Notes under the pieces: generated by a model | The model's database searches: none | The model's input: only the letters and a program-made list of their open reading frames with translations | Told to the model about the DNA's origin: nothing | In this document: positions 18,338 through 58,356 of the stretch, piece after piece | Numbering within the stretch: the first letter of the stretch is position 1 | Layout: each line of letters starts with the position of its first letter | Position numbers and translations under genes: made by a program | Source: a virus | Strand: one strand, 5' to 3' | Length of the DNA stretch: 64,000 nt | IMG/VR virus record: IMGVR_UViG_3300037325_000203

Positions 18338-19738
18338 TTAGAAATCATAGCGGGCGGTCATTACAGTTTTAAGCATAATGCTGATTGGTGTCATTTCTTC
18401 GCCACCCAATACCGACTTAACGATGCTTGGGCTAAAGCCTGACACCAAGGCTGCACCTGACTCGTTGTAAGTCACTGGACTGTTGCCGGCGCGGCCATTC
18501 AGGTTCCAGAACACAATCTGTGGCATCTCGTATCCAGCATTATTGAACTCTTGTTTTACCATTTCCATAGCGCTAACACTCACGCCCCGAGAATTGGTCG
18601 AAACGCATTGATTAAATTCCATGTCAGACAGGATAAGGAGTTTGCTCGGCATTTCGCTCTGCGGTACACCGTGCTTAACGCCGGCGTTAAGCACCAGTTT
18701 AAACACTGCCTGAATGTTTGTGCTCATTCCCCAATCGGTTCGGGCCATCTGCTCGTAGCGCTGTATTAGGTTACCCGACACCTTTTGCAAAGAAGGGGTA
18801 CTACTAAAAGTAACAAATTGGTCCTTGAAAGCTCCACTTAGTCGTTCGGACAGATATAGTCCCAGAGAGATAGATACGTCCATAGCAGTTACACTACCAG
18901 ACACTTCGACGCCACTCATGGAGCCCGAGACATCTACGATTGGCAGAATATTTTCTCTTGACCCTTCGAGGTAGTTCGGCAGTGCCGCCCATTGTGCATT
19001 CGCCACAGTTGGGTCACCGTTGTTCAATGAACGAATAACATCGTATGGATATGCAACAGATGCATTGATCTTTGCCTCACCCGTAGCCAACTTAGCTTTG
19101 TAGTCGCCGTATCCCGCAGGATCATGCTTCAAGAAAGCTTTTTGGTAGCGCCCGGCGGCGACTGAGGGAACATGCGGATACACAATGCCAGTCCAGTCTT
19201 GCGCACACATTTTCTGCTCAACCGTGTTAGACAGACCGACCAGCAACTTACGGTACTGTTTCGGGGTCAATTTCAAGTAAGAGCGGATCTTGTTTGCTTC
19301 TGCACCCTGTCGAGGCATCCATTTTGCACACAATCCATCTCGGGTCTCGTTCAGTGCAAACGCAATCATGCGGAGAGCTTCGCGTTCGATGGGCGAACCG
19401 AATGCAACTAGCACATCATCCCACCGACCAAGTTCGGGCGCCTTTACCAGAACTCGGGAAGCGCTTGCCGGTTCGTTCTTCAGGATATAACTAAACAATT
19501 TCCGGAATGTATCGCGCTCACCTGCGCCGCCTCTTGCATCTCGGGCCCATTGCAATACACGAATTGCCACTTCCGAGTCTTCGACAAATGCCCCTACAAA
19601 AGTAGAGGTGATATCTTTACCGCGGCTCGCGCCGGCGAGAAAGAACAAGTCAACGTTCTTGTTCAACGAAGATGCGTTAGTAACTGCGCCGTTGGCAGTT
19701 GTAGCAGATGAATTTACGGCTTCAAATAGTGTTGTCAT
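18338..19738 (-). CDS. DUF2828-family protein with C-terminal vWA domain (possibly Ro60/TROVE-like)
   Basis: T.NGA, RDARGGAGER..F, GRWDD, AKWMPR, DVSGSM MIDAS, LSDMEF, FWNL, VSGFSP. Confidence 0.85.
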   Translation of the reverse strand: MTTLFEAVNSSATTANGAVTNASSLNKNVDLFFLAGASRGKDITSTFVGAFVEDSEVAIRVLQWARDARGGAGERDTFRKLFSYILKNEPASASRVLVKAPELGRWDDVLVAFGSPIEREALRMIAFALNETRDGLCAKWMPRQGAEANKIRSYLKLTPKQYRKLLVGLSNTVEQKMCAQDWTGIVYPHVPSVAAGRYQKAFLKHDPAGYGDYKAKLATGEAKINASVAYPYDVIRSLNNGDPTVANAQWAALPNYLEGSRENILPIVDVSGSMSGVEVSGSVTAMDVSISLGLYLSERLSGAFKDQFVTFSSTPSLQKVSGNLIQRYEQMARTDWGMSTNIQAVFKLVLNAGVKHGVPQSEMPSKLLILSDMEFNQCVSTNSRGVSVSAMEMVKQEFNNAGYEMPQIVFWNLNGRAGNSPVTYNESGAALVSGFSPSIVKSVLGGEEMTPISIMLKTVMTARYDF

Positions 19739-19748
19739 AATTTATCTC

Positions 19749-19783
19749 CAGAATTAATATTTAAAATTTGCTGTTTGAATTCT
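19749..19783 (-). promoter_or_regulatory. CAGCAA stem element overlapping DUF2828 RBS
   Basis: AGAATT-CAAACAGCAA...AATTCT-GGAG-ATAAATT-ATG. Confidence 0.65.
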
Positions 19784-19814
19784 TAAAAACATAGTATGTG
19801 ACAATTTACATGCT

Positions 19815-20270: not shown

Positions 20271-20415
20271 GGGGTAACTCTGAAGTGTTCTTAACTAGCT
20301 TACCAAAGTAAGTTCGCTAATAAAATTGTTTTATTATTGGCGGTAACGAATCTTTTGCTTAAAAATATAGTGTACTATTATTTCTTTTATCTGTCAACTA
20401 CATTCAAAATTAAAA

Positions 20416-20645
20416 CTAGGTGATCGTAATTGGTTATTTTATTGTCTGGTCGATTTACTTTAATTACCCCGACCATATCACTAATCGTTAGTGACCGATT
20501 TCGTACTTGTGTCTGCTACGAACAACATATCGACATTCTGTCGCATATCCAATCTATTAGCGCTTAATATTTCTATCAAGTATAGCTTTGCGAGCTCACT
20601 GTCTTTGGCAACGATGCTTTATGTTTTAACTTGCTGTAATCACCT
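20416..20645 (-). ncRNA. Long CAGCAA-family ncRNA 1
   Basis: AGGTGAT-TACAGCAA...ATCACCT closing stem, internal hairpins, TCGACA-17-TATAAT upstream. Confidence 0.65.
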
Positions 20646-20690
20646 ATCAAACTTTATTATATAGTAACATCATTACAATGTCGACTAAAA

Positions 20691-20900
20691 ACAGAGTGGC
20701 GTAAGGAACACATAGTCTAAAAAGAATACATGTTGTACGGCCTTACCCGTAGATCGAACCTTTTACATCGTTCTAGGATGTTTATACCACTGTAAGTCTC
20801 CTTACGCAATAGGACCAGTTTCAACGAGTTTCCTCTCCACTGGATATATATGGTACGTACAGTTACCTTTCGGTAAGTTTTTGTTTGCTGTATCCACTCT
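20691..20900 (-). ncRNA. Long CAGCAA-family ncRNA 2
   Basis: AGAGTGG-ATACAGCAA...CCACTCT-GT closing stem, GNRA hairpins, TTGACT-18-TATAAT upstream. Confidence 0.68.
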
Positions 20901-20984
20901 TTGTGTATAACAAGTTCTATTATACAGTGTGTTTACTTATCTAGTCAACCCAAATCTGCTGCAGAAACAGGTTAACATATTGTC

Positions 20985-22964: not shown

Positions 22965-24014
22965 TTAGTCTTTTTCTTTAAGCAAATATATGTTAGAAAT
23001 CGCTTTAAAGGAGAACTTGCCGTCGACTCTCTTAAACACTAACCCTTCCCTGACAGGATGGGTAATGCTCGTACCTTCCGCAAATTTTAGTATGTCTGCC
23101 ACAGTTTGTATACCGAGTGTATCCCTTAAATTTGCAGTGTGTGCAATAACAGGAACGTGTTCTGCCATTTTTCTATCTAACCCGAATACGTGCATGTTGT
23201 CAACAAATCCTCGACGGCTGCTCGGGGACAAATACGATCCTTGGTCGATATCGTAGATGTCAAAGATATACAGTTTAGCAGCGGATAATCCCTCTCGATT
23301 CTGTTGTATACCCGGGCCCATAAGTTCCCCTTGTACCGCGTAATTCTGCCGTAAAGACGCTAATACTGACTGTAGTCCGGAGTCGACGAACATACGAACA
23401 TAGGAGTTACCTCCATTCGTATCGTCAACACTTAATTCCCAATTCCTGCTACACACACCTGTGTCGCCATTGTTGTAATACGCAGTGAACGAAGTCCCGT
23501 CTAGCTTTAGAGAAACTTCGAACTTCGAATCAAATTCAGCGAATATATCAGCGCCAATATTCTGGCAACGCTCTTGCTCAGTTTTACTAATAAAGGACGG
23601 AAAATTTCCTCGAACCACACCGGCAAGTTCTGCGGGTATTTGAGCTTCCCACTTCTTAATTCCTAAATTAGCTGTAACGTCTGTGTCAACAGAAAGTGTA
23701 CCATTAGTACTGCCGAGTACAGACAAAGAACATACGAATCCTTGACTAAGCTGTCCGCGTAATTTAATAGTTTTCAGTCTATGGCCCTTATTCCCCTCAA
23801 ATATGCGCGAGCGTTTTTCAACAAGATGTTGCCAAGCCGGGTTATCATCAGGTAAAAAACTATCTACCTCGCAATAAATGCAAAGTTCTCCTACATAGAA
23901 TTCTCCCTTCTTTACAACGGCTTGCCACCCGTCGATCTTAGCCAACACAATGAGGTCGGCACCTTCGATCGGCAATAGTTCGTCAATTTTTCTAATTGTT
24001 GCTAAGTTTCTCAT
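22965..24014 (-). CDS. RNA ligase, DRB0094/Rnl2-like family
   Basis: LATIRKI..L.PIEGAD, KLRGQLSQG, KLDGTS, QGELMG, EGLVFK, FKAISN. Confidence 0.9.
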   Translation of the reverse strand: MRNLATIRKIDELLPIEGADLIVLAKIDGWQAVVKKGEFYVGELCIYCEVDSFLPDDNPAWQHLVEKRSRIFEGNKGHRLKTIKLRGQLSQGFVCSLSVLGSTNGTLSVDTDVTANLGIKKWEAQIPAELAGVVRGNFPSFISKTEQERCQNIGADIFAEFDSKFEVSLKLDGTSFTAYYNNGDTGVCSRNWELSVDDTNGGNSYVRMFVDSGLQSVLASLRQNYAVQGELMGPGIQQNREGLSAAKLYIFDIYDIDQGSYLSPSSRRGFVDNMHVFGLDRKMAEHVPVIAHTANLRDTLGIQTVADILKFAEGTSITHPVREGLVFKRVDGKFSFKAISNIYLLKEKD

Positions 24015-24468
24015 TTGATTTCTCACTTATTGTTTTAAGAATAGCTTCGTGATGAGGCCAATCCGGGCTGTGTGTTGTAAGTGACCTTACCTGCTCGCCA
24101 AAGACTAGAGAAAACATAATCGCCGATTCTTTTGTCTGAAAACTAAATCGATACCAACAGTTCGTAACCTTGTACGACGCAACATTGTACGAATCATTAT
24201 GAGTCCTTTTATTGTCTGAGTACATTGTATAACTCAAATCAACGTCGTCCATTATGACTGTTTCTATTAGTGCAGATTCTATCCACTGGCGTATCTTTAC
24301 CTTAGGGACTGGACTATTTCCGTATTTACTATTATACATATACACATGATATGGATAATCCGGACTAGGCCATATATAAGAATATCTTTGACTAGATGTA
24401 CAATATGCGTCTGTAAAATACCACTCCGCCATATTCTGTATTTCGTGTTTAGCAACCAATGTTCCCAT
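23992..24468 (-). CDS. Hypothetical protein
   Basis: 158-aa ORF. Confidence 0.6.
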   Translation of the reverse strand: MGTLVAKHEIQNMAEWYFTDAYCTSSQRYSYIWPSPDYPYHVYMYNSKYGNSPVPKVKIRQWIESALIETVIMDDVDLSYTMYSDNKRTHNDSYNVASYKVTNCWYRFSFQTKESAIMFSLVFGEQVRSLTTHSPDWPHHEAILKTISEKSNEKLSNN

Positions 24469-31954: not shown

Positions 31955-32524
31955 TTACATATTTCCTGGACTCGTCTGACTACCTTGGTCTACCTGGCTT
32001 CTCTTGAGAATACATTAGTCGAAACGTGCAATGATTATTTTCATCTAATTTAGCTAATTTTTCTTTTAAAAAACAGCGGGCGTATTGTTCAAGGTATTTA
32101 TTCATAATATGCAATGTTTATCCATCGAGTAGATCCTCCCGGTTTAAGGCCGGGCTTGCATGATACACTACTATACTCGATGGATAAACACAGCGGGGAA
32201 GGGCTATAGTTCTTCCCATGTGTTTAAAATAAGCGGCAGATTAGAGCCGTCCCAGGATTTGCACTTGCCAGGTCTCTCTTTCGAGCGCATTACTATATGC
32301 TACAGGATAATCTGTCAGGTAGACTACATTGTAGTCTACCTTTTGCTAGCCACTATTATAGCAATGATGCTGGAATCTGTCAACAGGTTATGGTCCATCC
32401 TTTAACGCATTATCGATCTGTCGTCTAACATATTTGAGGTTTGGTTCGGAAATTGTATTAACCATTTCGTAGACTGTAAGATCTTCCCTAGTTGGTTATA
32501 AGGCGTATACTTTGGTCGTAAAAA

Positions 32525-32815
32525 CAGGGACCGAAGTCCCCATTGGTTGTTTATTTTACAAGGTAAGTCCTACCTCGGAGCGGCAGTTTCTTAGGCTGCG
32601 ACCATATCTGCGAAAGCAGACATGTTCAACTCGTTTGTATTTGCGTTTGCATTTACGATTTTGTATCATTTACGTCGGTTACATGACGATTCTATGTATA
32701 ATTTTGCCTGCGCGGTCGATAGCCAGTTCACCCCCACCTAAGTACCCTAAGTTACTTAGGTGGAGGTGGAGGAAGTCGAATCCTCGTGTCGCACATTCTC
32801 TGTTACACACTTGCT
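32525..32815 (-). ncRNA. ssrA: Circularly permuted two-piece tmRNA
   Basis: T-arm/acceptor GAGGATTCGACTTCCTCCACCTCCACC precedes GGGGGTGAACTGGCTATCGAC; tag frame ANANTNELNMSAFADMVAA*; terminator follows. Confidence 0.88.
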
Positions 32816-33258
32816 AACTAAATAGCAGAATTTCTCTTTAATCTATCTGCCGTGTACCCTCTTTTTAGAAAAGCGTCTTGGTCATACAGATTAATTATGC
32901 ATTTTGTGTTATCTAAACTCATCCAACACGTAGTTACAGTCTTACTTTTTTTACCAATTACCTATCGTGTTGCTAGCACATTTTGAAAACACAGAAGAGC
33001 AGAATGGTATTGGACGAGTTGGGTAACGTCTTGGGTATAACATCGGGCTTCCTGTCAGTATTTAGTTAAGCACTATCAAGACATGACTAGTGCCTCTACG
33101 TTTCGTCTAACGGTCGGATGCAGCCGACTGCTGAGGTGCGCTACCACCTTTAACATTTAGTCAAATAGTGCTTAGCCTCAATTATAACAACCAGACGCAG
33201 TTAGACGCAAGTATCCAAGTGTGTTAGCATAATTACACGTGATATCTTAACTGAGGCA

Positions 33259-35085: not shown

Positions 35086-35853
35086 ATGAACTCCCACTTT
35101 TACAAAATTATTTTACCAATGTGGCTATTGACGGGCGCTTCGTTAATAGTATTTATAATCAATTTTCAATCAGTGTTTGTTATTTATGCATTACTGGGGC
35201 TGTACCTAGCAGGCGTGTTTGGCAACACTATCGGGTTTCATCGTTACTTTACTCATCAGAGTTTTTCTGTAAACCGGTTCTGGCATTACACATTTTTAGT
35301 GTTGGGCAGCATGACTGGCCAGGGTTCTTTGATCTTTTGGACATCGTTGCATTTACATCATCACAGAAATTCTGACAACGACAAAGATGTTCACAGCCCG
35401 CGACGCGGATTCTGGAAATCTACGATATTGTGGCAAGTAAAATCGGATTTCCATAATACCCCAGGGTTAATTGCGCCAAAAAAATTATACAGAGACAAAG
35501 TTGTTAAATTTTTCCACTACCATTATTACAAGCTGTATTGGGCAGTTGGCGTAATTTTAGCACTCATAGATATATATTTTTTCTTATTCTTTTTTTGTGT
35601 AGGTGCATTTTTTCTTACTTCTATTCTAGATAATATGAGTAACTTTCTTATGCACTGGCCGGGCGTAGGCTATGTGAATTTTGAAACAAAAGATTCATCC
35701 AGGAATGTACCTATAATTGCGTACATATCCCTAGGCGGAGGATGGCACAATAATCACCACCATGATCCAAAAAATTACAGGTTTGGCGTATTTCCAAAAG
35801 AATATGATATCGGTGCACGCATTATAGATTTAATAAAGGAAAAAAATGTTTGA
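35086..35853 (+). CDS. Membrane fatty-acid desaturase
   Basis: HRYFTH, HLHHH, DVHSP, WHNNHH. Confidence 0.9.
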   Translation: MNSHFYKIILPMWLLTGASLIVFIINFQSVFVIYALLGLYLAGVFGNTIGFHRYFTHQSFSVNRFWHYTFLVLGSMTGQGSLIFWTSLHLHHHRNSDNDKDVHSPRRGFWKSTILWQVKSDFHNTPGLIAPKKLYRDKVVKFFHYHYYKLYWAVGVILALIDIYFFLFFFCVGAFFLTSILDNMSNFLMHWPGVGYVNFETKDSSRNVPIIAYISLGGGWHNNHHHDPKNYRFGVFPKEYDIGARIIDLIKEKNV

Positions 35854-37351
35854 TGTTGTTATTTTCTCCGATACATCACTGTCGGATCTTGATTACATAG
35901 CCGAAGAAAAGGTTAAAGAAATATCAAACCTTGCCGATATAATAAAAGAACTACCTGCAAAAAGTGCAGGCGCCCATCGTATAAAAACAGAAGTAAGAAA
36001 TGCAGGGTACACATGCAAAGTAATAGATTTGTTATTTTATTTCACAGAAGGAGAGATCTCAGAAGTATGTAAAAAATACCTATCGTCGGAGACTCGTGTT
36101 ATTGGATTTAGCACTACCTTCTGGTCTAATATAACAACTGATGCGCACCGCAGTAAAATATTTAAGATAGTATACGAATATTCTCGCAGGCTTACGGGGC
36201 CAAAGATTGTATTCGGAGGAACACTTGCTGATAATTTTTCAAATAAAATCTACGCCGATAAAACGTTTAGTGGATTTACCGAAGAAGAGTTTGTAAATTA
36301 CTTGTACGAACTTACAGGCAAGGAAGACCGGCTAGTATTCGACTTTAATAAATCCACGATAGAATACAATGCCGATGATTTTGTTGACTGTGGAGAAAGT
36401 CCTGTTATAGAAATATCTAGAGGTTGCATATTTAAATGCTCCTTCTGTGCTTACCCCTTAAACGGCAAAAGTAAATTCGACTATATAAAAGACGAAGAGA
36501 TATTAAAAACCGAATTAATAAAAAATTACGAACTTCACGGAATTACAACTTACACCTTTAGCGACGACACATTTAATGATTCCACTTATAAAATGGAATA
36601 CTTACATAAAATTTTTACATCGTTACCTTTTAAAATTCAGTTTGTTGCATACGCCAGACTCGACCTATTAAATTCCCACAGAGAACAGGTCGATCTATTA
36701 AAAGAGATGGGTCTTGTAGGTGCCTTTTTTGGAATCGAGACTTTAAATCACCAGTCGGGTAAAGTGATAGGAAAAGGTATAAATCCCGAGAAAGTTAAAG
36801 AATTTTTATACGAGTTAAAATCCGAATACTGGAAAAATGACATTAATATCACAATAGGCTTAATTAGCGGATTACCATTTGAAACTACAGAATCACACCG
36901 TGCCACATTAGACTGGATCTCAAATAAAGATTACTGCCTGGTTGACAGGATTAGGCCTGCGGCACTAAGCATACCTAATCCACTATTAGACAAATATCCT
37001 TTCAAAAGTGAATTTCAATTAAATGCACCGAAGTATGGATTCTACTGGCCGAATAAAGATTCAGATAAATGGAAGAATTTTTCACACGAAATTAAGTCGC
37101 AGGACATAGCTATAGAAATGTCGAGAGAAATGTACGAAGTTGCAAGACAAGCGGGTAAAGTGTCAAAGGGTAATTTTGGTTTACCACTAACTGCAAATAT
37201 AGCCAAGTATGGTAAAGAACCAAAAACTTTAGCAGATATCATACAGATGCCGGCGGAGGAGCACGAACTATGGCTTAGTCGTAATCGACACGATATGATT
37301 ACAGGCTATGTAAATAATTATAAATTCAATACACTGAATAAATTTATCTAG
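35846..37351 (+). CDS. B12-binding-domain radical SAM enzyme
   Basis: SRGCIFKCSFC, DDTFND, FFGIETL, ISGLPFE. Confidence 0.88.
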   Translation: MFDVVIFSDTSLSDLDYIAEEKVKEISNLADIIKELPAKSAGAHRIKTEVRNAGYTCKVIDLLFYFTEGEISEVCKKYLSSETRVIGFSTTFWSNITTDAHRSKIFKIVYEYSRRLTGPKIVFGGTLADNFSNKIYADKTFSGFTEEEFVNYLYELTGKEDRLVFDFNKSTIEYNADDFVDCGESPVIEISRGCIFKCSFCAYPLNGKSKFDYIKDEEILKTELIKNYELHGITTYTFSDDTFNDSTYKMEYLHKIFTSLPFKIQFVAYARLDLLNSHREQVDLLKEMGLVGAFFGIETLNHQSGKVIGKGINPEKVKEFLYELKSEYWKNDINITIGLISGLPFETTESHRATLDWISNKDYCLVDRIRPAALSIPNPLLDKYPFKSEFQLNAPKYGFYWPNKDSDKWKNFSHEIKSQDIAIEMSREMYEVARQAGKVSKGNFGLPLTANIAKYGKEPKTLADIIQMPAEEHELWLSRNRHDMITGYVNNYKFNTLNKFI

Positions 37352-46237: not shown

Positions 46238-46825
46238 TTAATTCCTAATAAGTTCGTATCTGCTTGTTGTTCTGTTAAATAACACGACACCGCTTTTCAC
46301 TAGTTCAAAAATTATGCTCTCACTTGCTGCATGTAGCTTGTTATGCACTGCAACGGTGGTCAAAAATAAATTCGACATATCATTGTTCTGCTTGTCTCCG
46401 TCGATATGATGAACAACTTCACCCTTATTCAACCCTCGTTTTAAATAACACTCCATTAAATATACATGCTCCCTTATCGATCTGTAACCCCCGGGTTGAT
46501 AAGGATAGTCTTTACCGATATATACTTCGGGATAACCACTTCGGCTAAGCTTTTTAAATCCAACACGATCGCCAAGAGACTTCTTTATCTTTGCTTCATA
46601 CCCGACTATGCCGGCAATTTTGGCGACGCCATGTAATGCCACACATGCTGGGCAAAATGTCTTTGCATTCTTCTTAGTCTGACTCGTCTTAGCTCGAGTA
46701 AAAATCGCTATACACAAGTCACGTTCAAATTGGGCCACAAAAGAATTTCTGCAATATGTAACTAACTTTCCAAATTTGCTGGATCTCACAAATTCTGTTG
46801 ATACTACTGTTTCCCCGACGTACAT
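46238..46825 (-). CDS. HNH homing endonuclease
   Basis: [23 protein letters not shown]. Confidence 0.85.
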
Positions 46826-48054: not shown

Positions 48055-48147
48055 GCCATTGCCTTTGTATAATCAGGATGCAATTTAGTTTTCAACTTTT
48101 GAGATTGAGTTTTTATAAGTTTGCGGAAAACATCCTTTAGAAATTTT

Positions 48148-49373: not shown

Positions 49374-50226
49374 AAATATCTGCAAATTGTTAAGATTCAA
49401 TGTGGTATAGGCTGATGTCTGATAAACTCATCTAGGATTTGAACCTAGCCACCCACCCGTAAGGAAGTATGCATCCATTACATCTATGAGACATTGTCTT
49501 AGTACCGCGGCAACGTAGTTCAACAAAGTCAGAATACAGACCACTGACGATTGCCGTCAATCAGCCTATACCACACTAAATTTAATTGTTGAGTTTGATC
49601 AGCATATCCTCATGACCGAGGAAATCGGGCATGGATTTTTACCAGGGGTACCGCGTCAGCGGGTCTGGTTTTACTCCGATCAAACTCAACAAAATTTTAA
49701 AGATCACCGAAGCACATCCGATCATGTTCTTCGTCTGGGGTTCTGTTTCATCCCCTTGGTATGTGTTTATTATAACATATCCAACAATAAAAGTAAAACT
49801 TATTTTGATCGGAATTTGTTATTTTTAAGAAAATTCACTAAAACATTGACCGAAAGCAGTGCGAAACGGTTGCTGATCGAATCTTCTTAAAAATAACGAA
49901 TTCTGTTTCAATCCCCTTTGTATATGTATATTATAACACAGACCAGAATAAAAGTAAAATCAAACTCGATCCCAGACTTTAAACTGTTCCAGCTCAATCT
50001 GCTGGATTGCGCCTTCAAGCATTTGCAGAGTCGCAGCCGAATCCGATGTGAATGCATCCGTATAAGTGGATTTATCAAGGGCCTGGAGCGCTTCAAGCGC
50101 ATAAATGGCCGAGAGCATCTTGTGCTTCGCACGATCTTTGAGAGATTAAGGTGCGCTGTTCTCTGGTGAGGATATTTGTATTCATAAGTTATTATAACAT
50201 AGACTAGAATAAAAGTAAAGGCTGAC

Positions 50227-51509: not shown

Positions 51510-52382
51510 TAAAGGTCTGAGATTACAACCTTTACTAATGAAACTTCAAGTATTATCAATTAGCCTTGCGAGCTAACCTTCTCTTGACATCCACCCGGTC
51601 TGCTTTCACAGTATCCAAGTATTTCACCAACATCGCCGTTTAGAGTCAGGCATTGGACTTGACATGATATTCTACTCTGTAACTTCATTCCCGTCTGCCT
51701 TGCGAGCAGTTCACAGTCGCTAAACCGTTCCGAACTTCCTGTTACAAACCAACTTTGCCTTGCGAGCTCTGTCAGACTTGGTTACCTTGCGGCCCAAGTA
51801 TTAGATGTTTTTCAAATATCACCGAAGTAGTCTTTGCTTTTTATTTCAATAAACCTTTGAAGCGGATTTGTAGTCCAAATCTACTGTGATGTGCTACTTC
51901 AGTTGCTGAATATCTTGTTAGATACCCAATACAACACACCACGTACCTTTTGCCTTGCGAGCTACTCAGTCGTCTTTCACGATACATGTCATACATACGG
52001 ATTTTACTCCGGTCACGGCGTGCCATATTCCGATCAAACTGCATACAAGCCCTTAGTTGCGACGCTTCGGACAAATATGCTACCCTTTCTCATACCATCT
52101 ACTAAGTTGGTTTGTCGAGAGGTCAGCACCACCTGTTACTCTTTGCTTACTTGCGTTACCCTTGCGGGCGCTTGAGCAAACATTCTTTCCTCGACACTTA
52201 CTTCAATGTTATCTCACCCGGTGTTACCTCAGATAAGTATGCCTTACGGCATTGAGCAGGCTTGCCTAGTATTCCCTTGCAGGCGACGGTATGTAGAAGT
52301 CCCGTCCTTTCCACGTCTCGCGACGCTTGTCATTCGCTGCAGGCTGGGCGAACCATACCTGCAACAGGAGCTAGGCCCCCTT
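51510..52382 (-). ncRNA. Giant structured RNA, GOLLD-like
   Basis: ~870 nt, GC-richer, no credible ORF, repeated GCTCGCAAGGC GNRA hairpins, inside tRNA array. Confidence 0.7.
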
Positions 52383-53128: not shown

Positions 53129-53185
53129 CAGAATACCTTTTGTTTTTAAAACCATATTAAAATTTTAATTTGCTGTAGGTAATCT
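53129..53185 (-). ncRNA. Short CAGCAA element
   Basis: AGATTACC-TACAGCAA...GGTATTCT-GT. Confidence 0.6.
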
Positions 53186-53192
53186 TTAAAAT

Positions 53193-53266
53193 TGGTGCTC
53201 CCAGGAAGAATCAAACTTCCAACTACACAATACCAATGTGTTAGTATATCATTTACCTATAGGAGC
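53193..53266 (-). tRNA. tRNA-Thr(GGT)
   Basis: ACACA-TTGGTAT-TGTGT. Confidence 0.7.
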
Positions 53267-53271
53267 ATAAT

Positions 53272-53345
53272 TGGTGCGGGCTAAGGGGATCGAACCCTCA
53301 TCGTAACGTCGGCAACGTAACATTCTGCCATTAAACTAAGCACAC
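53272..53345 (-). tRNA. tRNA-Gly(GCC), mismatched acceptor
   Basis: ACG-TTGCCGA-CGT. Confidence 0.6.
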
Positions 53346-53349
53346 ATAT

Positions 53350-53438
53350 TGGCGGAAGGATGGCGTAATCGAAACCCTGGCCTTTCGGCTCCATCTGTGT
53401 TCAAAACAGAGCTAGCATCCCCGGCTAGACAACCTTCC
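53350..53438 (-). tRNA. tRNA-Ser(TGA)
   Basis: TCTGT-TTTGAAC-ACAGA, long variable arm. Confidence 0.72.
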
Positions 53439-53496
53439 ATTATAAGTCCCATGCCGACCGGGTCGACTAATAGTATGCCGAGGGGGCGGCAAAATT

Positions 53497-53572
53497 TGGT
53501 ACCTTGGACTGGACTCGAACCAGTATCGCTCTCCGTGTAAGGGAGACGTATAACCTCTCTACGCACCAAGGC
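53497..53572 (-). tRNA. tRNA-Val(TAC)
   Basis: TCTCC-CTTACAC-GGAGA. Confidence 0.85.
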
Positions 53573-53656
53573 ATTGTAAAATAAGACTGCTCCATACTAT
53601 CAGGAGTGGAAGTGATACTCTCTTCCGAAGAGAGGAATATTAACACAGTCTAGAAT

Positions 53657-53849
53657 TGGTGGATCGGAGGGGAATCGAACCCCACGAGCGTCCTAGGAAC
53701 ACGCCAGTTCAGCCCATTAGTAGAAACAATGTCTGCATGCTAGGCCCACTATCACCCTCCGCGGGGGTTGTGTGACTTTCTGCTCCTTACATTGTTTCTG
53801 CTGGTGGACTGTACGGGAATCGAACCCGCGTAACTCTCCAGTTCGACCC
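53657..53849 (-). ncRNA. Twin cross-paired Ala-type acceptor/T-arm RNA
   Basis: Two GGGnnGAACTGG..T-arm..CCACCA units whose acceptor strands pair cleanly only in swapped fashion. Confidence 0.62.
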
Positions 53850-53855
53850 AATTGT

Positions 53856-53928
53856 TGGTGGACCGCCTAGGGCGCGACCCTAGTGTAATTCTGCCGAAAA
53901 GTATTAGTTTGCAAGCATTTAGCGGCCC
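53856..53928 (-). ncRNA. tRNA-like RNA with G3-U70 acceptor, no clear anticodon arm
   Basis: GGGCCGC/GCGGTCC-ACCA. Confidence 0.5.
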
Positions 53929-53935
53929 GATATTA

Positions 53936-54301
53936 TTAATTCGATATACCTGTATCACCGACTGTCCACATCATCGGCCCGGCCGGTGTAAAAAATAATC
54001 TAGGTCTTATTGTTACAAATGAGGATAACTTCGCGGCACCTAGTAAACTTGAAGTTATGTCAAGTGCCTTACTTCTAGATAGAATTTTTTTACCACCATA
54101 GTGTGTCTTGGTTAGTATGTCCTCTAGAATCTCTGCGGAATTATCTAGTACTACGCAAGCTGCTTCTTCGGCAGTACTTGCAACGACAGTATACCGTCTT
54201 CCACTAAATTCGTAATACTTTCCTCCATAATAATTATTATGGATTATTATATCCCATGCTTTCCATCCTTTTAGTTTATAAAATGTATCAGATTCTGTCA
54301 T
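53936..54301 (-). CDS. Hypothetical protein
   Basis: Likely start MTESDTFYKL. Confidence 0.6.
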   Translation of the reverse strand: MTESDTFYKLKGWKAWDIIIHNNYYGGKYYEFSGRRYTVVASTAEEAACVVLDNSAEILEDILTKTHYGGKKILSRSKALDITSSLLGAAKLSSFVTIRPRLFFTPAGPMMWTVGDTGISN

Positions 54302-54344
54302 ACCGTATTGTACATACAACACAGTGCATAGTCAACTATAAGAT

Positions 54345-54422
54345 TGGTACCCAAGGCGGGATTCGAACCCGCACTGTTCGGTTTTTGAAACCGCTGTCTC
54401 CTACCAATTGCACTACTTGGGC
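54345..54422 (-). tRNA. tRNA-Leu(CAA), short variable loop
   Basis: CGGT-TTCAAAA-ACCG; paralog of 47317. Confidence 0.85.
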
Positions 54423-54506
54423 ATAAAAGATCTGGTTTCTCGATAATGGTCTTGACACAGTACTATCTCATCTTGCAGGACAAGTAACCATATCAGAAAA
54501 GCAAAA

Positions 54507-54582
54507 TGGACACCCGGGTGAGAATCTAACTCACACAAAACTGTTTTGCAGGCAGCCCCGTTAAACATTCCGGCACCGGGTG
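54507..54582 (-). tRNA. tRNA-Cys(GCA), divergent
   Basis: CTGCAAA loop, U73. Confidence 0.65.
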
Positions 54583-54635
54583 ATTGATGTTGGGCAGACG
54601 CTACGGATACAATCCGTCATCTGTAAACTACTTAG

Positions 54636-54707
54636 GGGTGACCACTGAGAATTGAACTCAGATAAGCGGAATCACAATCCACGACTTTACCATTAAGTTA
54701 TGGCCAC
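54636..54707 (-). tRNA. tRNA-His(GTG)
   Basis: GTGGA-TTGTGAT-TCCGC; flanked by extended stem. Confidence 0.8.
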
Positions 54708-54726
54708 ACCTAAGTAGACTATCATC

Positions 54727-54802
54727 TGGTGCCTCGGGCTGGATTCGAACCAGCTACGCGCAACTTTTCAGGCTGCCGCTCTACCTATTGAGCTACCGAG
54801 GC
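54727..54802 (-). tRNA. tRNA-Phe(GAA)
   Basis: GCAGC-CTGAAAA-GTTGC. Confidence 0.9.
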
Positions 54803-54812
54803 TTATTAAATT

Positions 54813-54888
54813 TGGCGGGCAGTGTACGACTCGAACGCACATTACAAGGATTTGGAATCCCGGAGCTTGCCAATTAGCAGAACTACCC
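54813..54888 (-). tRNA. tRNA-Trp(CCA)
   Basis: GGGA-TTCCAAA-TCCT, G73. Confidence 0.75.
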
Positions 54889-55521
54889 TTTATTTTGTCT
54901 AGGCATGGCGCCTTTCTTCCACCCTAAACTTTCGTAATAAGGTAACTCATTTTTATCAATTCTCTTAGCAATGCTACTATTATTAATTAATGTCTTTCCT
55001 AAATTTGCTCTAGATACTTTTGCAATATGATCCTGCGAACACGTTCTACCAGTTAGTGCTTTAGAGACTTTATTCCTAGTTTCTGCGTTATCTCTCATAG
55101 CATTATTTTTAGATAATTTTAGGCGTTTTTCGGGAGATGTCGCCTGTTTTAGTGCAGACTGACGTATCTTCTCTTTAGTTTCGGCGGAATGAATTCTTCC
55201 AGCAAACGCGCCCACTATGCCCGGATTACCGCCGCTACCACCTATTTTTAAATTATACGATAGCGAATCACTTACTAAGTTTTTATCAACTATATGTTTC
55301 TCCATAATAAACATATCTTGTTTTGTAGGTAATAAATGTAAGATTGTTTTCTTAAAATTTTCTTTTCCGTATTTCTTAATTGCCCGTTTAAGATGTTTTC
55401 CGGACCCCATATAACCGTCGTTTAGATTTAGTGTTTGGTGGCAACCGATATAATATTTTTTATCTAACTGATTAGTAGTTTTGTAAATTATATAGTACAT
55501 TGTACTATATTTATGCAACAC
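54883..55521 (-). CDS. GIY-YIG (Seg-like) homing endonuclease with NUMOD3-like repeats
   Basis: IIYKTTN..YYIG.H..YMGSG..AIKKYG..YNL..GG.GG, HSAETKEKI. Confidence 0.9.
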   Translation of the reverse strand: MLHKYSTMYYIIYKTTNQLDKKYYIGCHQTLNLNDGYMGSGKHLKRAIKKYGKENFKKTILHLLPTKQDMFIMEKHIVDKNLVSDSLSYNLKIGGSGGNPGIVGAFAGRIHSAETKEKIRQSALKQATSPEKRLKLSKNNAMRDNAETRNKVSKALTGRTCSQDHIAKVSRANLGKTLINNSSIAKRIDKNELPYYESLGWKKGAMPRQNKG

Positions 55522-55551
55522 TTATATAATGCCGTTAAATTAAAATGTAAC

Positions 55552-55584
55552 TGAACCGCTCCGCTGCCAATTGCGCCACCGAGA
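55552..55584 (-). pseudogene. tRNA 5'-half remnant
   Basis: TCTCGG-TGGCGCAATTGGCAGCGG then truncated before endonuclease. Confidence 0.5.
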
Positions 55585-55596
55585 TATATTGTTTGT

Positions 55597-55675
55597 TGGC
55601 TCCGGATAAGAGGATCGAACTCTTCTAGCCAGTGATTAACAGTCACGCCCATGCACCTTGCTCGGGTTTTCCGGA
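55597..55675 (-). tRNA. tRNA-Asn(GTT)
   Basis: GTGA-CTGTTAA-TCAC. Confidence 0.85.
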
Positions 55676-55708
55676 ACAGAAATTATCTGATGTAAATACA
55701 TCAATGTT

Positions 55709-55783
55709 TGGTAGGTCCTGGGAGATTCGAACTCACCACTAGTCGCTAATCAGGCAACGAGTCTACCATTAACTTAAGGACCT
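55709..55783 (-). tRNA. tRNA-Ile(GAT)
   Basis: GTTGC-CTGATTA-GCGAC. Confidence 0.78.
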
Positions 55784-56014
55784 AAAATATTTGCGCCCTG
55801 CTTTCCACGGCAGGACGACTTTGGCCTTGCGAGCATTTCTGGGATTGATCACGGGCAATCTCCAAAGACCGAATTTGTTCTTAACGTGGTAAACAAATTA
55901 AAAAACGACTAGTATGCTTAAAGGCTTGTCTAGTTGCCTACTTTAGATTTAATCCAATTAAGTTCGGGATATTGGTATAACGTCCAACAACGAGTGGATT
56001 ACCACTATCGGATC

Positions 56015-56091
56015 TGGAGCGGATAACCAGATTTGAACTGGTACTCTCAGTTTGGAAGACTATTGTGCTAACCGTTGAACACTATACCCGC
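56015..56091 (-). tRNA. tRNA-Gly(TCC)
   Basis: AGT-CTTCCAA-ACT, U73. Confidence 0.82.
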
Positions 56092-56187
56092 ATTATTCGT
56101 GAGTGTATTTTCTAACGCGACACGATCTCAGCCGCGACTTACGAACAAATATACATGTACAAGGTCTATTTGTCTATCTTTTGTTGG

Positions 56188-56306
56188 TGGTAGTGCCCCA
56201 GGGATTCGAACCCCGATCTCGTCCTTAGAATGGAATTGATTTTGGTTGCTGTATGAATCCTATGCAGGATTACTTTCTACGTGTGCTACCATTACACCAG
56301 GGCACT
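56188..56306 (-). tRNA. tRNA-Arg(TCT) with 45-nt CAGCAA-element insertion in anticodon stem
   Basis: Removing 56235-56279 gives CGTCC-ATTCTAA-GGACG in a full cloverleaf. Confidence 0.72.
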
Positions 56307-56311
56307 ATTTC

Positions 56312-56387
56312 TGGTGGGAGTACAGGGATTTGAACCTTGACTTGTCAGATTAAGAGTCTGCTATGCTACCAATAACATCTCACTCCC
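56312..56387 (-). tRNA. tRNA-Lys(CTT)
   Basis: CAGA-CTCTTAA-TCTG. Confidence 0.85.
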
Positions 56388-56420
56388 GAATTATGATATC
56401 CCCGTAGGGAATCGAATTAA

Positions 56421-56495
56421 TGGTACTCCTGAACGGTTTCGATCCGTCTTCTACTGATTGAAGGTCAGTCATCCTAGCCACTAGACGACAGGAGT
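56421..56495 (-). tRNA. tRNA-Glu(TTC)
   Basis: ACTGA-CCTTCAA-TCAGT. Confidence 0.8.
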
Positions 56496-56507
56496 ATTAA
56501 TTTTTGT

Positions 56508-56581
56508 TGGTAGCCAGAGAGGGAATCGAACCCCCGAATTCCGCTTATCAGGCGAGTATTATACCATTTAATTATCCGGCC
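56508..56581 (-). tRNA. tRNA-Ile(GAT)
   Basis: CGC-CTGATAA-GCG. Confidence 0.78.
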
Positions 56582-56590
56582 AAAAAGTTT

Positions 56591-56660
56591 ACACCAGGCC
56601 GGAATCGAACCAGCTTACAGCACCTCTATAATGCTGTGTAATACCAATCTACTACAAGTG
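56591..56660 (-). pseudogene. Degenerate tRNA with 9-nt loop
   Basis: D and T arms visible; CAGCA-TTATAGAGG-TGCTG; no CCA. Confidence 0.45.
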
Positions 56661-56686
56661 CGGGTAAGTAAGTTATCGAGACTTAC

Positions 56687-57331
56687 TTACTTGAAGGTTA
56701 CAGGAATCGGTTGTTTAACTTTTGTCGAAAATACAAAGTCATGCAACTGGTGATGCACTCGTCTATTCATGTCGGGATTATTAAATCCTACACCCATTAA
56801 CAGAACTGGCTCATTTTCCATAGCTAATAGGTTTTGAATTGCAGCACCGTCAAAACAGGCACAGCAACCTGTACTATAGTCCATCATACTAGCTGTAAGG
56901 TTTACATATCCTGCAGCAATGCCTACAGCCATTTCGGTATCTCTGCGTAATGTATCTAGTTGTGATGCCGACGCTGTGTTGTCCAGAATTGCCCTAGTTT
57001 CTTCGTTACGATAGATATCGGTAGATAAGACAGGCACATAATTATTTTTTTCAAAGACGATAACCAAGTTAGCTAAAATTTGACTGTTAGTTTCGGTTTC
57101 GTACTTTTTGCTACGGCTAGCATGGCGTGTGAACTCGTGAATTTGTTCAATTGTTGCCCTGTCCGTAATGAAATAAGCTTTGTAAAAAGCAATATTCTGC
57201 TTGCTAGGGCACTGTGTAACTGCATGCACAAGAAGATCTAAATCCTCTTGTGGAATGCTCTTGCTTAGGTCCCAGTTTCGCTGGCAGTGTTGACTTCTAA
57301 CGATCGCTTTTGATAATACTGAATGGTCCAT
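56687..57331 (-). CDS. Nitroreductase family protein
   Basis: R.WD.SK.IP.E..PSKQN..GIAAG..TGCCACFD..LLMGVG; late motif. Confidence 0.8.
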   Translation of the reverse strand: MDHSVLSKAIVRSQHCQRNWDLSKSIPQEDLDLLVHAVTQCPSKQNIAFYKAYFITDRATIEQIHEFTRHASRSKKYETETNSQILANLVIVFEKNNYVPVLSTDIYRNEETRAILDNTASASQLDTLRRDTEMAVGIAAGYVNLTASMMDYSTGCCACFDGAAIQNLLAMENEPVLLMGVGFNNPDMNRRVHHQLHDFVFSTKVKQPIPVTFK

Positions 57332-57363
57332 GATGGTCTTCTTTTTCAGTTATTTATCATTTT

Positions 57364-57441
57364 TGGTCTGGGTAGAAGGATTTGAACCTTCAGCCTCCGA
57401 GTTCCAAGCCCGGCCGTCTACCTGATTGACAATATACCCAG
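57364..57441 (-). tRNA. tRNA-Pro(TGG)
   Basis: CCGGG-CTTGGAA-CTCGG. Confidence 0.85.
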
Positions 57442-57448
57442 AAAAATT

Positions 57449-57524
57449 TGGTCTCCGTGTAGAGATTCGAACTCTAACCCTACCGCCCCAAACGGCAAGT
57501 GCAACCAGATAACACTTCACAGAG
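57449..57524 (-). tRNA. tRNA-Pro(TGG)
   Basis: TGCCG-TTTGGGG-CGGTA. Confidence 0.82.
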
Positions 57525-57665
57525 ATAGTTTGTAATCACTCTTCCTTCATGCAGTTGACTGTATGAACATGTGTAGTATAGTTCAGAACAGTGTTGATTA
57601 CTAGTGCATGTGATGGACCGGTAGTGCCGAGTCAAAGTCGACTGTATACTTTATGTCCAAAATTT

Positions 57666-57743
57666 TGGTGCTCCCACAAGGAATCGAACCCTGATCAACG
57701 GAATACAAAACCGTTATAATTAAAACCATTATACGATAGGAGC
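57666..57743 (-). tRNA. tRNA-Thr(TGT)
   Basis: ACGG..TTTGTAT..CCGT. Confidence 0.75.
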
Positions 57744-57753
57744 AAATATAATA

Positions 57754-57806
57754 CAGAGTACGCAGTTTTTTTCATGTAAAGAAATTTAAGTTGCAGTAGG
57801 TACTCT
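57754..57806 (-). ncRNA. Short CAGCAA-type element (CTGCAA variant)
   Basis: AGAGTAC-CTACTGCAA...GTACTCT-GT. Confidence 0.6.
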
Positions 57807-57814
57807 TTAAAACT

Positions 57815-57888
57815 TGGCGCGAGATACGAGACTCGAACTCGTTTGTGCTGGTAGACAGCCAACCATAATACCCATATATCAATCCCGC
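57815..57888 (-). tRNA. tRNA-Asp(GTC)
   Basis: GTTGG-CTGTCTA-CCAGC, G73. Confidence 0.8.
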
Positions 57889-57897
57889 GATAATAAA

Positions 57898-57954
57898 ACA
57901 GTGTTCTTATTTTTCAATTAAAAGTTGAATTTTTATATTTGCTGAACGAACACT
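57898..57954 (-). ncRNA. Short CAGCAA element with Lys-like anticodon hairpin
   Basis: AGTGTTC-GTTCAGCAA..TTCAA-CTTTTAA-TTGAA..GAACACT-GT. Confidence 0.65.
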
Positions 57955-58159
57955 TTAGAAAATGGAGAGGACCATGGCATTGTGTATTTTAAGTAACACA
58001 TTGCGGCCCACATAATAAATTTGAGAGCATGCCTATCCTTTCGGACTCAACATATTGTCTCGAGCAAGCGAGTTTTAACAAACCATACTTCGCGGTAATC
58101 TAAGCCTGGGGCACCAGGATCCGCTACTTGGGACTCAGCCTGTCGTCTATCTCAAAAAA

Positions 58160-58230
58160 TGGTGGACCAGTGGGGAGTCGAACCCCACACAAGACATTGC
58201 AAGTGTCTAAACCGTTCCCACGGCAAGCCC
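58160..58230 (-). tRNA. tRNA-Ala(TGC), short D arm
   Basis: AGACA-CTTGCAA-TGTCT, G3-U70. Confidence 0.72.
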
Positions 58231-58356
58231 ATTATAAATTGTTACGTTGCTGGTTCCCTGACCAGTATTCTTGTAATATATTTCGTTTCCTATGCTGTGG
58301 TATACTAAGAGAGGCCGCAGAGTCGTTCACTCGAAATTTTTCTCGGTAACATAATC

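What the first reader, a model, noticed from the sequence alone, without database searches (positions are those of the whole stretch)
53129..57954. Short CAGCAA elements carry isolated anticodon-like stem-loops (possible decoys)
Seen: cargos are hairpins with 7-nt loops: TTCAA-CTTTTAA-TTGAA (57898; loop identical to tRNA-Lys UUU), TTTC-TTTACAT-GAAA (57754; Val UAC-like) and TTTTAA-TATGGTT-TTAAAA (53129; weak). All are interleaved with real tRNAs. Known: PrrC and other defence anticodon nucleases cut tRNA-Lys(UUU) and other anticodon loops. Inference: protein-presented decoys or repair substrates. Caveat: these stems are AT-rich and could arise by chance.
Basis: partly seen in the sequence, partly recalled or inferred. 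Interest (0 to 1): 0.72.

Follow-up and report, generated by a model that had tools for sequence, protein, structure and literature searches.

The report
Phage small RNAs displaying anticodon loops
Between the tRNA genes of a T4-like phage lie four ~65-nt RNA genes with a shared "handle" (like the partner RNAs of Ro60 ring proteins and the orphan Class I RNAs of social amoebae). Three of them carry a hairpin that copies, or nearly copies, a real tRNA's anticodon loop, so the phage may show fake anticodon arms to tRNA-targeting enzymes.

Summary
They are not chance AT-rich stems. Each sits in a conserved module: AAG, a 6-8 bp covarying closing stem, an invariant C-GCAA motif, a hairpin, the 3' stem strand, then CUGU. 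A model built on 28 copies scores the three at 50-63 bits and finds a fourth at 48071-48140.

Across relatives, cargo hairpins with a 7-nt loop, U33 and purine-37 occur in 15 of 28 elements, against 2.2 expected. In 13 of 35 the loop is identical to a genuine anticodon loop, against 0.4 expected. In this window, 57913-57929 copies Lys-UUU and 48092-48108 copies Leu-CAA. 57770-57784 is one base off Val-UAC. 53144-53162 is not convincing.

The handle resembles Dictyostelium Class I RNA (Rfam, below threshold), and long forms resemble YrlA Y RNA. Elements co-occur with a DUF2828 gene in 11 of 11 records against 0 of 5. In this window that gene is 18338-19738, and its predicted fold matches Ro60.

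"Protein-presented" is therefore supported. Decoy or repair function is untested. This scan has already noted the same handle family with Ro60-like genes in at least 54 other genomes. The anticodon-loop cargo is the new point here.

The parts
57896..57958 (-). Short element E3. AAAG ends at 57953. Closing stem 57953-57948 pairs with 57906-57901. CAGCAA at 57944-57939. Hairpin 57929-57913 has a loop identical to the Lys-UUU anticodon loop. UGUUUU tail follows, then tRNA-Asp at 57888.
   Evidence: 54.4 bits; RF01414, 32.4 bits
57751..57810 (-). Short element E2, between tRNA-Asp and tRNA-Thr. Closing stem 57805-57800 pairs with 57761-57756. Motif variant CUGCAA at 57796-57791. Hairpin 57784-57770 has a loop one base off Val-UAC loops.
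   Evidence: 50.6 bits; 29.3 bits
53126..53189 (-). Short element E1, between tRNA-Thr(GGU) and tRNA-Met. Closing stem 53184-53177 pairs with 53138-53131, with one U-U mismatch. CAGCAA at 53175-53170. AU hairpin 53162-53144 is not convincingly anticodon-like.
   Evidence: 62.6 bits; 24.3 bits
48071..48140 (-). Fourth short element E4, not in the finding, 10 nt after a tRNA. Motif variant CCGCAA at 48126-48121. Hairpin 48108-48092 has a loop identical to a Leu-CAA anticodon loop.
   Evidence: (43.2 bits, not in the seed)
18338..19738 (-). Gene for a 466-aa DUF2828 + DUF7788 protein with a Ro60-like fold (HEAT ring plus vWA). It is the presumed protein partner of the handle.
   Evidence: phrog_850; top 12 PDB matches all Ro60
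19720..19787 (-). Handle-like element at the 5' end of the Ro60-like gene, running into its ribosome-binding site and start codon. It may be an autoregulatory site or a fifth RNA.
   Evidence: 30 bits. The same position is seen in 5 of 5 relatives.
56188..56306 (-). tRNA-shaped RNA with a UCU anticodon arm. The same module, with its stem closed by a 4-nt loop, is inserted in the 5' strand of the anticodon stem.
   Evidence: my reading of the sequence; agrees with note e1-5743471
20687..20905 (-). Long handle element upstream of the Ro60-like gene. A 7-bp closing stem, CAGCAA, about 185 nt of cargo with a T-loop-like stretch, then CUGUUUUU.
20417..20650 (-). Second long element: a 9-bp closing stem, CAGCAA and about 205 nt of cargo. 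Its 3' flank departs from CUGU.
22965..24026 (-). RNA ligase gene, 3.2 kb upstream of the Ro60-like gene on the same strand. Listed as context for an RNA-repair reading.
   Evidence: phrog_968, 4e-89

Best explanation
The elements are genes for small (~60-70 nt) Y-RNA-like RNAs. They are transcribed with the tRNA array and cut out by the enzymes that trim the neighbouring tRNAs.

Each RNA has two parts:
- A handle: 5' AAG, a 6-8 bp stem joining the two ends, a single-stranded C-GCAA motif, and a 3' CUGU tail.
- A cargo hairpin. In many members, here E3, E4 and nearly E2, it reproduces the whole 7-nt anticodon loop of a particular tRNA on an AU-rich stem.

The handle most likely docks on the phage's Ro60-like ring protein (18338-19738), as Y RNAs dock on Ro60. 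The particle would then expose an imitation anticodon arm. The most likely use is to engage enzymes that read anticodon loops, above all defence anticodon nucleases, as a decoy or bait. Tethering such enzymes or damaged tRNAs for repair is the nearest alternative.

Shown: the family, its structure, its tRNA-array context, its co-occurrence with the protein gene, and the anticodon-loop identity. Inferred: processing, protein binding and the decoy role.

My odds: real RNA family about 0.9; partner of the Ro60-like protein about 0.65; nuclease decoy or bait about 0.3.
For: - Shared anatomy in E1-E3 and in relatives.
- Closing stem 97.9% paired with 6 of 7 pairs compensated. Slid controls give about 40%.
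- Model R1 finds an unseeded fourth copy. It also finds copies in 5 of 5 related records and in cultured phages FelixO1 and DLP_6.
- Nearly all true members lie in tRNA arrays on the tRNA strand, often 2-8 nt from a tRNA.
- Anticodon-like loops: 15/28 against 2.2, CU...AA 10/28 against 0.18, reversed-sequence control 4 and 0. Exact genuine loops: 13/35 against 0.44. Loops equal those of cognate tRNAs in the same phages.
- DUF2828 gene in 10 of 10 records with elements and in the window, against 0 of 5 tRNA-rich records without elements, one of them 100% complete. Exact test about 2e-4; the records are related.
- A handle copy sits 50-110 nt upstream of that gene in 5 of 5 relatives and on its start in the window.
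- Predicted fold: the top 12 PDB matches are all Ro60.
- A homologous family member, Bas63 gp130, counters the Ppl defence (PMC11482910).
- Phage Ro60 binds phage Y-like RNAs (PMC12135203).
- Lys-UUU, Thr-UGU and Asn-GUU arms are targets of the PARIS nuclease AriB (PMC12409363).
Against: - No expression, binding or cleavage data exist for these RNAs.
- About 40% of family members, E1 and the FelixO1 copies among them, carry cargo that is not anticodon-like. Anticodon display cannot be the family's only role.
- gp130 alone, without phage RNAs, rescued T7 on Ppl, and Ppl is not known to be an anticodon nuclease.
- The handle lacks the GNCGAA / CGAA motif of known Ro60-binding Y RNAs.
- The three elements lie 33-39 kb from the protein gene.
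- Phages with a mimic usually also carry the real tRNA.
- Many sampled records are related, so the counts overstate independent events.
- The protein model is only moderate: pLDDT 68, TM 0.38-0.46.
Confidence: 0.45

Rival explanations
1. The handle RNAs are real Ro60-like partners, but the anticodon-like hairpin is only a leftover. Short elements arose by deletion from long forms whose cargo is a rearranged tRNA body, and the loop has no function of its own.
For: Long forms with a T arm, a closed acceptor hairpin and a D arm exist in relatives (YrlA 34.5 bits). A tRNA-shaped carrier sits in the window (56188-56306). Many members have non-anticodon cargo.
Against: The stems have drifted to AU-rich sequences unlike real tRNAs, while all seven loop bases stay canonical. 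At least ten different anticodon identities occur on unrelated stems. All five hairpin pairs show compensatory change. This pattern points to selection on the loop.
Confidence: 0.2
2. The imitation anticodon arm is displayed for something other than defence nucleases. It could soak up or recruit host tRNA-modifying enzymes (t6A37, i6A37, U34 or queuosine enzymes). It could also tether damaged tRNAs and the RNA ligase for repair, as proposed for Rsr-YrlA-RtcB.
For: All mimicked loops have A37, with U36 or A36 plus A38. These are the signatures of t6A and i6A substrates (established tRNA biology, applied). YrlA is modified by tRNA enzymes (PMC4201824). An RNA ligase gene lies 3 kb from the Ro60-like gene. 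TROVE proteins are grouped with RNA repair in jumbo phages (PMC7824862).
Against: No enzyme link was tested. The A37 signature is shared by most tRNAs with these anticodons, so it does not discriminate. No kinase-phosphatase or RtcB gene was found among the window ORFs I scanned, and the scan was incomplete.
Confidence: 0.2
3. These are chance AT-rich hairpins in tRNA spacers, or plain processing or transcription signals (RNase sites, promoters, terminators) with no RNA product of their own.
For: Single-sequence folds are not better than shuffles (z -0.9 to -1.3). The spacers are 20-30% G+C. A plus-strand sequence loosely resembles a promoter.
Against: There is covariation in both helices, including G-U pairs that fit only the tRNA strand. 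The motif is invariant across distant phages. Loop statistics are far outside shuffles. The promoter-like hexamers have the wrong spacing (about 11 bp) and would point against the array. There is no G+C stem with a T run.
Confidence: 0.04

Closest known systems
Class I RNAs of dictyostelid social amoebae (Rfam RF01414; Kjellin et al. 2021, PMC7919456)
   Same: About 60 nt and 20-40% G+C. Both have a 5' AAG with an invariant G paired to an invariant C, a 6-bp covarying stem joining the ends, and a single-stranded motif ending CAGCAA next to the 5' strand. Both also have a variable interior and a 3' CUGU. The nearly invariant positions are the same (C..CAA). The Rfam model hits four phage elements over its full length (24-32 bits).
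   Different: Scores are below the curated threshold (41.5). The phage copies have no DUSE promoter, sit in tRNA arrays and are released by tRNA processing. The host is a phage of bacteria, while the paper reports Class I RNAs as unique to Dictyostelia. The known amoebal partner is an RRM protein. Homology versus convergence is open.
Bacterial and phage Y RNAs (YrlA/YrlB, RF02553) with Ro60/Rsr (Chen et al. 2014, PMC4201824; Thermus phage phiLo Ro60-Yrl, PMC12135203)
   Same: These are small RNAs whose ends pair into a stem, encoded with a Ro60-type ring protein, in short and tRNA-like long versions. A long relative (L004:6092-6207) matches YrlA end to end (34.5 bits). The window's protein is predicted to fold like Ro60.
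   Different: The handle motif is C-GCAA, not GNCGAA/CGAA. The protein belongs to DUF2828/DUF7788, not Pfam TROVE. The short elements of this finding lack D and T arms and instead carry a free anticodon-arm mimic, which is not described for Y RNAs. They lie 33-39 kb from the protein gene, not within 4 kb.
Phage tRNAs that counter anticodon nucleases (T5 tRNAs against PARIS AriB, PMC12409363; T4 Pnkp/Rnl1 repair against PrrC, from general knowledge)
   Same: Same genomic setting (phage tRNA arrays). The same anticodon identities figure among the mimics (Lys-UUU, Thr-UGU, Asn-GUU, Arg-UCU, Tyr-GUA).
   Different: Those are complete, chargeable tRNAs that replace cleaved host tRNAs. These are 17-nt arms on a protein-binding handle that cannot be charged. 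A decoy mechanism has not been described.

Membership tests
Dictyostelium Class I RNA (RF01414) | Short covarying stem joining the 5' and 3' ends, with conserved 5' AAG and 3' CUGU | tested here: met
   G-C invariant, 97.9% paired, 6 of 7 pairs compensated. AAG and CUG(U) are nearly invariant.
Dictyostelium Class I RNA (RF01414) | 11-nt motif ending CAGCAA adjacent to the 5' strand of the stem | tested here: met
   C, G, C, A, A are invariant in 28 of 28. E2 and E4 vary only at the position that also varies in amoebae.
Dictyostelium Class I RNA (RF01414) | Score at or above Rfam's curated threshold (41.5 bits) | tested here: not met
   32.4, 29.3, 24.3 and 26.4 bits. Nothing at E <= 0.01 in 66 kb of related loci.
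Dictyostelium Class I RNA (RF01414) | DUSE promoter about 60 nt upstream; a dictyostelid nuclear gene | tested here: not met
   The elements abut tRNA genes in a phage contig. There is no room for an upstream promoter element.
YrlA / Y RNA (RF02553) | Encoded with a Ro60-type protein gene | tested here: met
   Same contig and strand in 11 of 11 records against 0 of 5. However, E1-E4 lie 28-39 kb away, beyond the 4-kb rule of Chen et al. Only the copies at 19720-20905 are adjacent.
YrlA / Y RNA (RF02553) | Ro60-binding motif GNCGAAN0-1G in the terminal stem region | tested here: not met
   The handle carries C-GCAA instead.
YrlA / Y RNA (RF02553) | tRNA-like domain with T and D arms | tested here: not met
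   Absent from E1-E4. Present only in long relatives.
YrlA / Y RNA (RF02553) | Physical binding to the Ro60-type protein | not testable with these tools
   Needs RIP/CLIP or EMSA.
tRNA (RF00005) | Cloverleaf with acceptor stem, D, T and anticodon arms | tested here: not met
   No tRNA call by ARAGORN or Rfam on the elements. Only an anticodon-arm look-alike is present.
Ro60 / TROVE proteins (for the partner gene 18338-19738) | HEAT-repeat ring closed by a vWA domain | tested here: met
   AF2 model with pLDDT 68. The top 12 PDB matches are all Ro60, full length, E 4e-8 to 4e-4. Sequence search of the PDB finds nothing. Pfam places it in DUF2828/DUF7788.

The most novel reading that the evidence does not exclude
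A widespread phage Ro60-like particle uses interchangeable small RNAs to display imitation anticodon arms of the tRNAs that bacterial immune nucleases attack, so acting as a programmable decoy or bait against tRNA-cleaving defences. The same handle in Dictyostelium Class I RNAs would mean those orphan RNAs are also partners of a Ro60-like (DUF2828) protein.
Probability: 0.25. Interest if true: 0.88.

Novelty: new variant of a known kind. Interest (0 to 1): 0.72.

Why it matters
Ro60/Y-RNA particles are known from animals, bacteria and a few phages, but what the variable part of the RNA is for is largely open. Here the variable part is readable: in many copies it is the exact anticodon loop of a named tRNA. 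That gives a concrete, testable idea of what the particle engages, namely enzymes that read anticodon loops. tRNA-cleaving immunity (PrrC, PARIS, retrons, Cas13) has just become a central theme of phage-bacteria conflict, so the timing is apt.

The finding also gives the orphan Class I RNAs of social amoebae their first look-alikes outside Dictyostelia, and a candidate protein family to test. The protein family is present in 710 cultured phage genomes, including FelixO1, A511-like, staphylococcal and mycobacterial phages, so experiments are within reach.

Tried and rejected
- Megablast of 12 kb against cultured phages gave no match. No whole genome is held for the window.
- Single-sequence folding gave insignificant z-scores, so I moved to comparative evidence.
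- My first stem-plus-motif script was too noisy and missed known copies. A long-cargo scan of the window was also noisy and was used only for the two elements near 20.5 kb.
- I considered and dropped four readings:
  - Plus-strand sigma-70 or MotA-type promoters: hexamer spacing of about 11 bp, pointing against the array, and the covariation argues for RNA.
  - Miniature transposons: the terminal stems covary instead of being conserved.
  - Armless tRNAs: the same module sits inside or around complete tRNA bodies elsewhere, so the closing stem is not an acceptor stem.
  - Short introns or permuted tRNA genes awaiting splicing: in L002 the acceptor is a 4-bp hairpin closed by a tetraloop and cannot yield a chargeable tRNA.
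- The idea that mimics replace missing tRNAs was rejected. Arrays with a mimic usually also hold the real tRNA.
- Rfam at E <= 0.01 over 66 kb of related loci returned no Class I hit.
- A PDB sequence search for the protein found nothing. Only the fold search did.
- The three FelixO1 elements do not carry anticodon-like cargo.
- Literature searches found no paper that links Class I RNAs, DUF2828 and Ro60, or that describes anticodon-arm decoys.


Full report
**What the window is.** The window is part of a T4-like myovirus contig. It has a gp15-type tail sheath stabiliser and SegE-like GIY-YIG and HNH endonucleases. Its largest known contig is 161 kb. It carries 33 tRNA genes, a permuted tmRNA and a GOLLD RNA, all on the minus strand. 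It matches no cultured phage at the DNA level, and no whole genome is held for it.

**The observation.**
- E3: a 5-bp stem at 57929-57925 / 57917-57913, with loop 57924-57918.
- E2: a 4-bp stem at 57784-57781 / 57773-57770, with loop 57780-57774.
- E1: an AU hairpin at 53162-53144.

Each lies in a spacer that starts right after the CCA end of one tRNA and stops 0-12 nt before the next.

The three spacers share far more than a hairpin. After U-rich AAAG comes a 6-8 nt strand, then (C)UAC[A/U]GCAA, about 8 nt, the hairpin and a few A-rich nt. Then comes the complement of the first strand, followed by CUGU. The outer strands differ in sequence between the three copies but always pair. Single-sequence folding recovers this two-helix shape in all three, though none is more stable than shuffles (z -0.9 to -1.3).

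**Relatives.** Loci around homologues of a neighbouring nitroreductase gene included two phage contigs with the same element between tRNAs. A pattern scan of IMG/VR required only the flank, the motif and CUGT. It gave a bimodal result: outer stems of 1-3 bp (chance) or 6-8 bp (real).

A descriptor search then collected about 30 distinct members. Nearly all lie in tRNA-rich loci on the tRNA strand, often 2-8 nt from a tRNA. The false positives lie in loci without tRNAs.

**Structure.** I used a MAFFT alignment of 28 short elements that was not fitted to any structure.
- The closing stem is 97.9% paired, and 6 of 7 pairs show changes on both sides. Sliding the partner by 1-3 columns drops pairing to about 40%.
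- The pair next to the invariant G-C switches A-U to G-C.
- G-U pairs fit only the tRNA strand.
- The inner hairpin, at fixed columns, is 66% paired, with compensatory change at all five pairs.
- C, G, C, A, A of the motif are invariant.

A covariance model built on this alignment scores E1, E3 and E2 at 62.6, 54.4 and 50.6 bits. It finds an unseeded fourth element at 48071-48140 (43.2 bits) and a fifth, weaker one at 19720-19787. It also finds 2-4 copies in each of five related records and copies in cultured phages FelixO1 and DLP_6.

| Measure | Observed | Dinucleotide shuffles | Reversed sequences |
|---|---|---|---|
| >=4-bp hairpin, 7-nt loop, U at loop position 2, purine at position 6 | 15 of 28 | 2.2 +/- 1.4 (0 of 1000 reach it) | 4 |
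| Stricter CU...AA loop | 10 of 28 | 0.18 | 0 |
| Loop identical in all seven bases to the anticodon loop of a genuine tRNA from these loci | 13 of 35 | 0.44 +/- 0.66 (maximum 4) | 2 |

The identities seen are Lys-UUU (several), Arg-UCU, Thr-UGU, Ser-UGA, Tyr-GUA, Cys-GCA, Asn-GUU, Ile-GAU, Leu-CAA, Pro-UGG and Lys-CUU.

The loops equal those of the cognate tRNAs in the same phages. The stems are AU-rich and unlike the G+C-rich stems of the real tRNAs. Arrays with a mimic usually also hold the real tRNA, so the mimics do not fill gaps.

In this window:
- E3 is an exact Lys-UUU loop. No Lys-UUU tRNA lies in the 64 kb.
- E4 is an exact Leu-CAA loop.
- E2 is one base off Val-UAC.
- E1 is not convincing.

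Two caveats apply. Many sampled contigs are related, so the counts are not independent events. And about 40% of members, including the FelixO1 copies, carry other cargo.

**What the module resembles.** With relaxed thresholds, Rfam matches the short elements over the full length of the Dictyostelium Class I RNA model. The scores are 32.4, 29.3 and 24.3 bits in the window and 26.4 in L004, against a threshold of 41.5.

The published definition of Class I RNAs fits point by point (PMC7919456): about 60 nt, AAG start, a 6-bp covarying stem joining the ends, an 11-nt motif ending CAGCAA beside the 5' strand, a variable interior and a CUGU end. That paper reports the class as confined to Dictyostelia.

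In relatives the same handle also encloses a rearranged tRNA body: anticodon-like hairpin, T arm, closed acceptor hairpin, then D arm. One such element matches the Y-RNA family YrlA end to end at 34.5 bits, against a threshold of 69.

In the window, 56188-56306 is the converse arrangement. It is a tRNA-shaped RNA with a UCU anticodon arm in which the handle, closed by a 4-nt loop, is inserted just 5' of that arm. So the constant unit is handle plus anticodon-type arm, and the rest of the tRNA is optional.

**The protein link.** I had reached the Y-RNA reading before consulting earlier notes. Those notes pointed to DUF2828 as the family to look for.
- ORF 18338-19738 (466 aa) is DUF2828 + DUF7788 and phrog_850 "RNA-binding protein".
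- Its AlphaFold model (pLDDT 68) has Ro60 structures as its top 12 PDB matches, all full length: phage phiLo, Xenopus, human and Deinococcus.
- Homologues occur in 710 cultured phage records. Some are annotated "Ro-like RNA binding protein".
- More than 8000 protein clusters match it in metagenomes.
- DUF2828 is present in 10 of 10 related records that carry elements. It is absent from 5 of 5 tRNA-rich records that lack them, one of which is a complete 400-kb genome. With the window that is 11/11 against 0/5, exact test about 2e-4, with the records not independent.
- A handle copy lies 50-110 nt upstream of the gene in 5 of 5 relatives and overlaps its start in the window.
- Two long handle elements fill the gap further upstream.
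- An RNA ligase gene lies 3 kb away.

**Mechanism.** Shown:
- a conserved, strand-specific RNA family with a protein-handle-like terminus;
- release sites defined by the neighbouring tRNAs;
- co-inheritance with a Ro60-like gene;
- cargo that copies anticodon loops.

Inferred: the handle binds the ring protein, and the particle exposes an imitation anticodon arm.

What the arm is for is open. The decoy or bait idea fits three observations. The mimicked species include the classic nuclease targets: Lys-UUU, Thr-UGU and Asn-GUU for PARIS AriB (PMC12409363), and Arg and Tyr for colicins and retrons (general knowledge). Bas63 gp130, which that paper describes as Ro60-like and which lies directly upstream of the tRNA genes as the FelixO1 homologue does, counters the Ppl defence (PMC11482910); I did not compare gp130 with the window's protein directly. 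And phage Ro60 with its Y-like RNAs captures host PNPase (PMC12135203).

Against it, gp130 acted without phage RNAs, Ppl is not known to cut tRNA, and many family members carry other cargo.

Modification-enzyme capture or a repair scaffold are equally untested alternatives. A relic origin of the loops is disfavoured by the contrast between drifted stems and intact loops.

**Novelty.** Phage Ro60 homologues and Y-like RNAs are published, so the kind is known. I found no paper describing the C-GCAA handle, its likeness to Class I RNAs, or anticodon-arm cargo. Earlier notes of this scan already record the handle family beside Ro60-like genes in at least 54 other genomes. The contribution of this finding is the quantitative case that the short elements display genuine anticodon loops.

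Noticed in passing
window 51514-51942 (-): GOLLD RNA, full-length Rfam match at 194 bits, inside the tRNA region.
   Followed up: no
window 32500-32881 (-): Permuted (two-piece type) tmRNA, called by both ARAGORN and Rfam.
   Followed up: no
window 58160-58260 (-): tRNA-Ala(UGC)-like sequence not called by ARAGORN or Rfam. The 5' acceptor strand seems separated from the D arm by about 25 nt that begin with CAGCAA.
   Followed up: no
window 56202-56260 (-): In the tRNA-shaped RNA, the handle's 5' strand can pair in two ways. It can pair with the upstream strand (closed hairpin) or with the T-loop region followed by CUG. The second pairing would recreate the ordinary short-element layout around the UCU arm.
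   Followed up: partly
window 49827-49888 (-): A 10-bp closing stem (up to 20 bp when extended), followed by CAGCAA and a small hairpin. Folding z-score is -4.2. The flanks differ from the family (no CUGU), and model R1 does not score it.
   Followed up: partly
window 53354-53438 (-): Sub-threshold tRNA-Sec-like match (32.9 bits) in a 151-nt spacer between tRNA-Val and tRNA-Gly.
   Followed up: no
window 54883-55521 (-), 46238-46825 (-), 27552-28133 (-): GIY-YIG (SegE-like) and HNH homing-type endonuclease genes are interspersed with the tRNA genes. A nitroreductase-family gene (56687-57331) sits inside the array.
   Followed up: partly
L204:29831-29905 (Stenotrophomonas phage DLP_6, KU682439.2 about 103868-103942): A handle element with a Lys-CUU anticodon-loop hairpin lies under an annotated 70-aa hypothetical CDS (AAY80_159). 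That CDS is probably a mis-call.
   Followed up: partly
L203:8751-8825, 8918-8983, 9372-9447 (Salmonella phage FelixO1): Three unannotated handle elements lie between the first tRNAs, just downstream of the Ro60-like ORF86. Their cargo is not anticodon-like.
   Followed up: partly
L191:2406-2605 (-): Group I intron (62 bits) within the tRNA array of a related phage contig.
   Followed up: no
window 15038-16507 (+), 35846-37351 (+): Two B12-type radical SAM enzymes in a phage genome.
   Followed up: no
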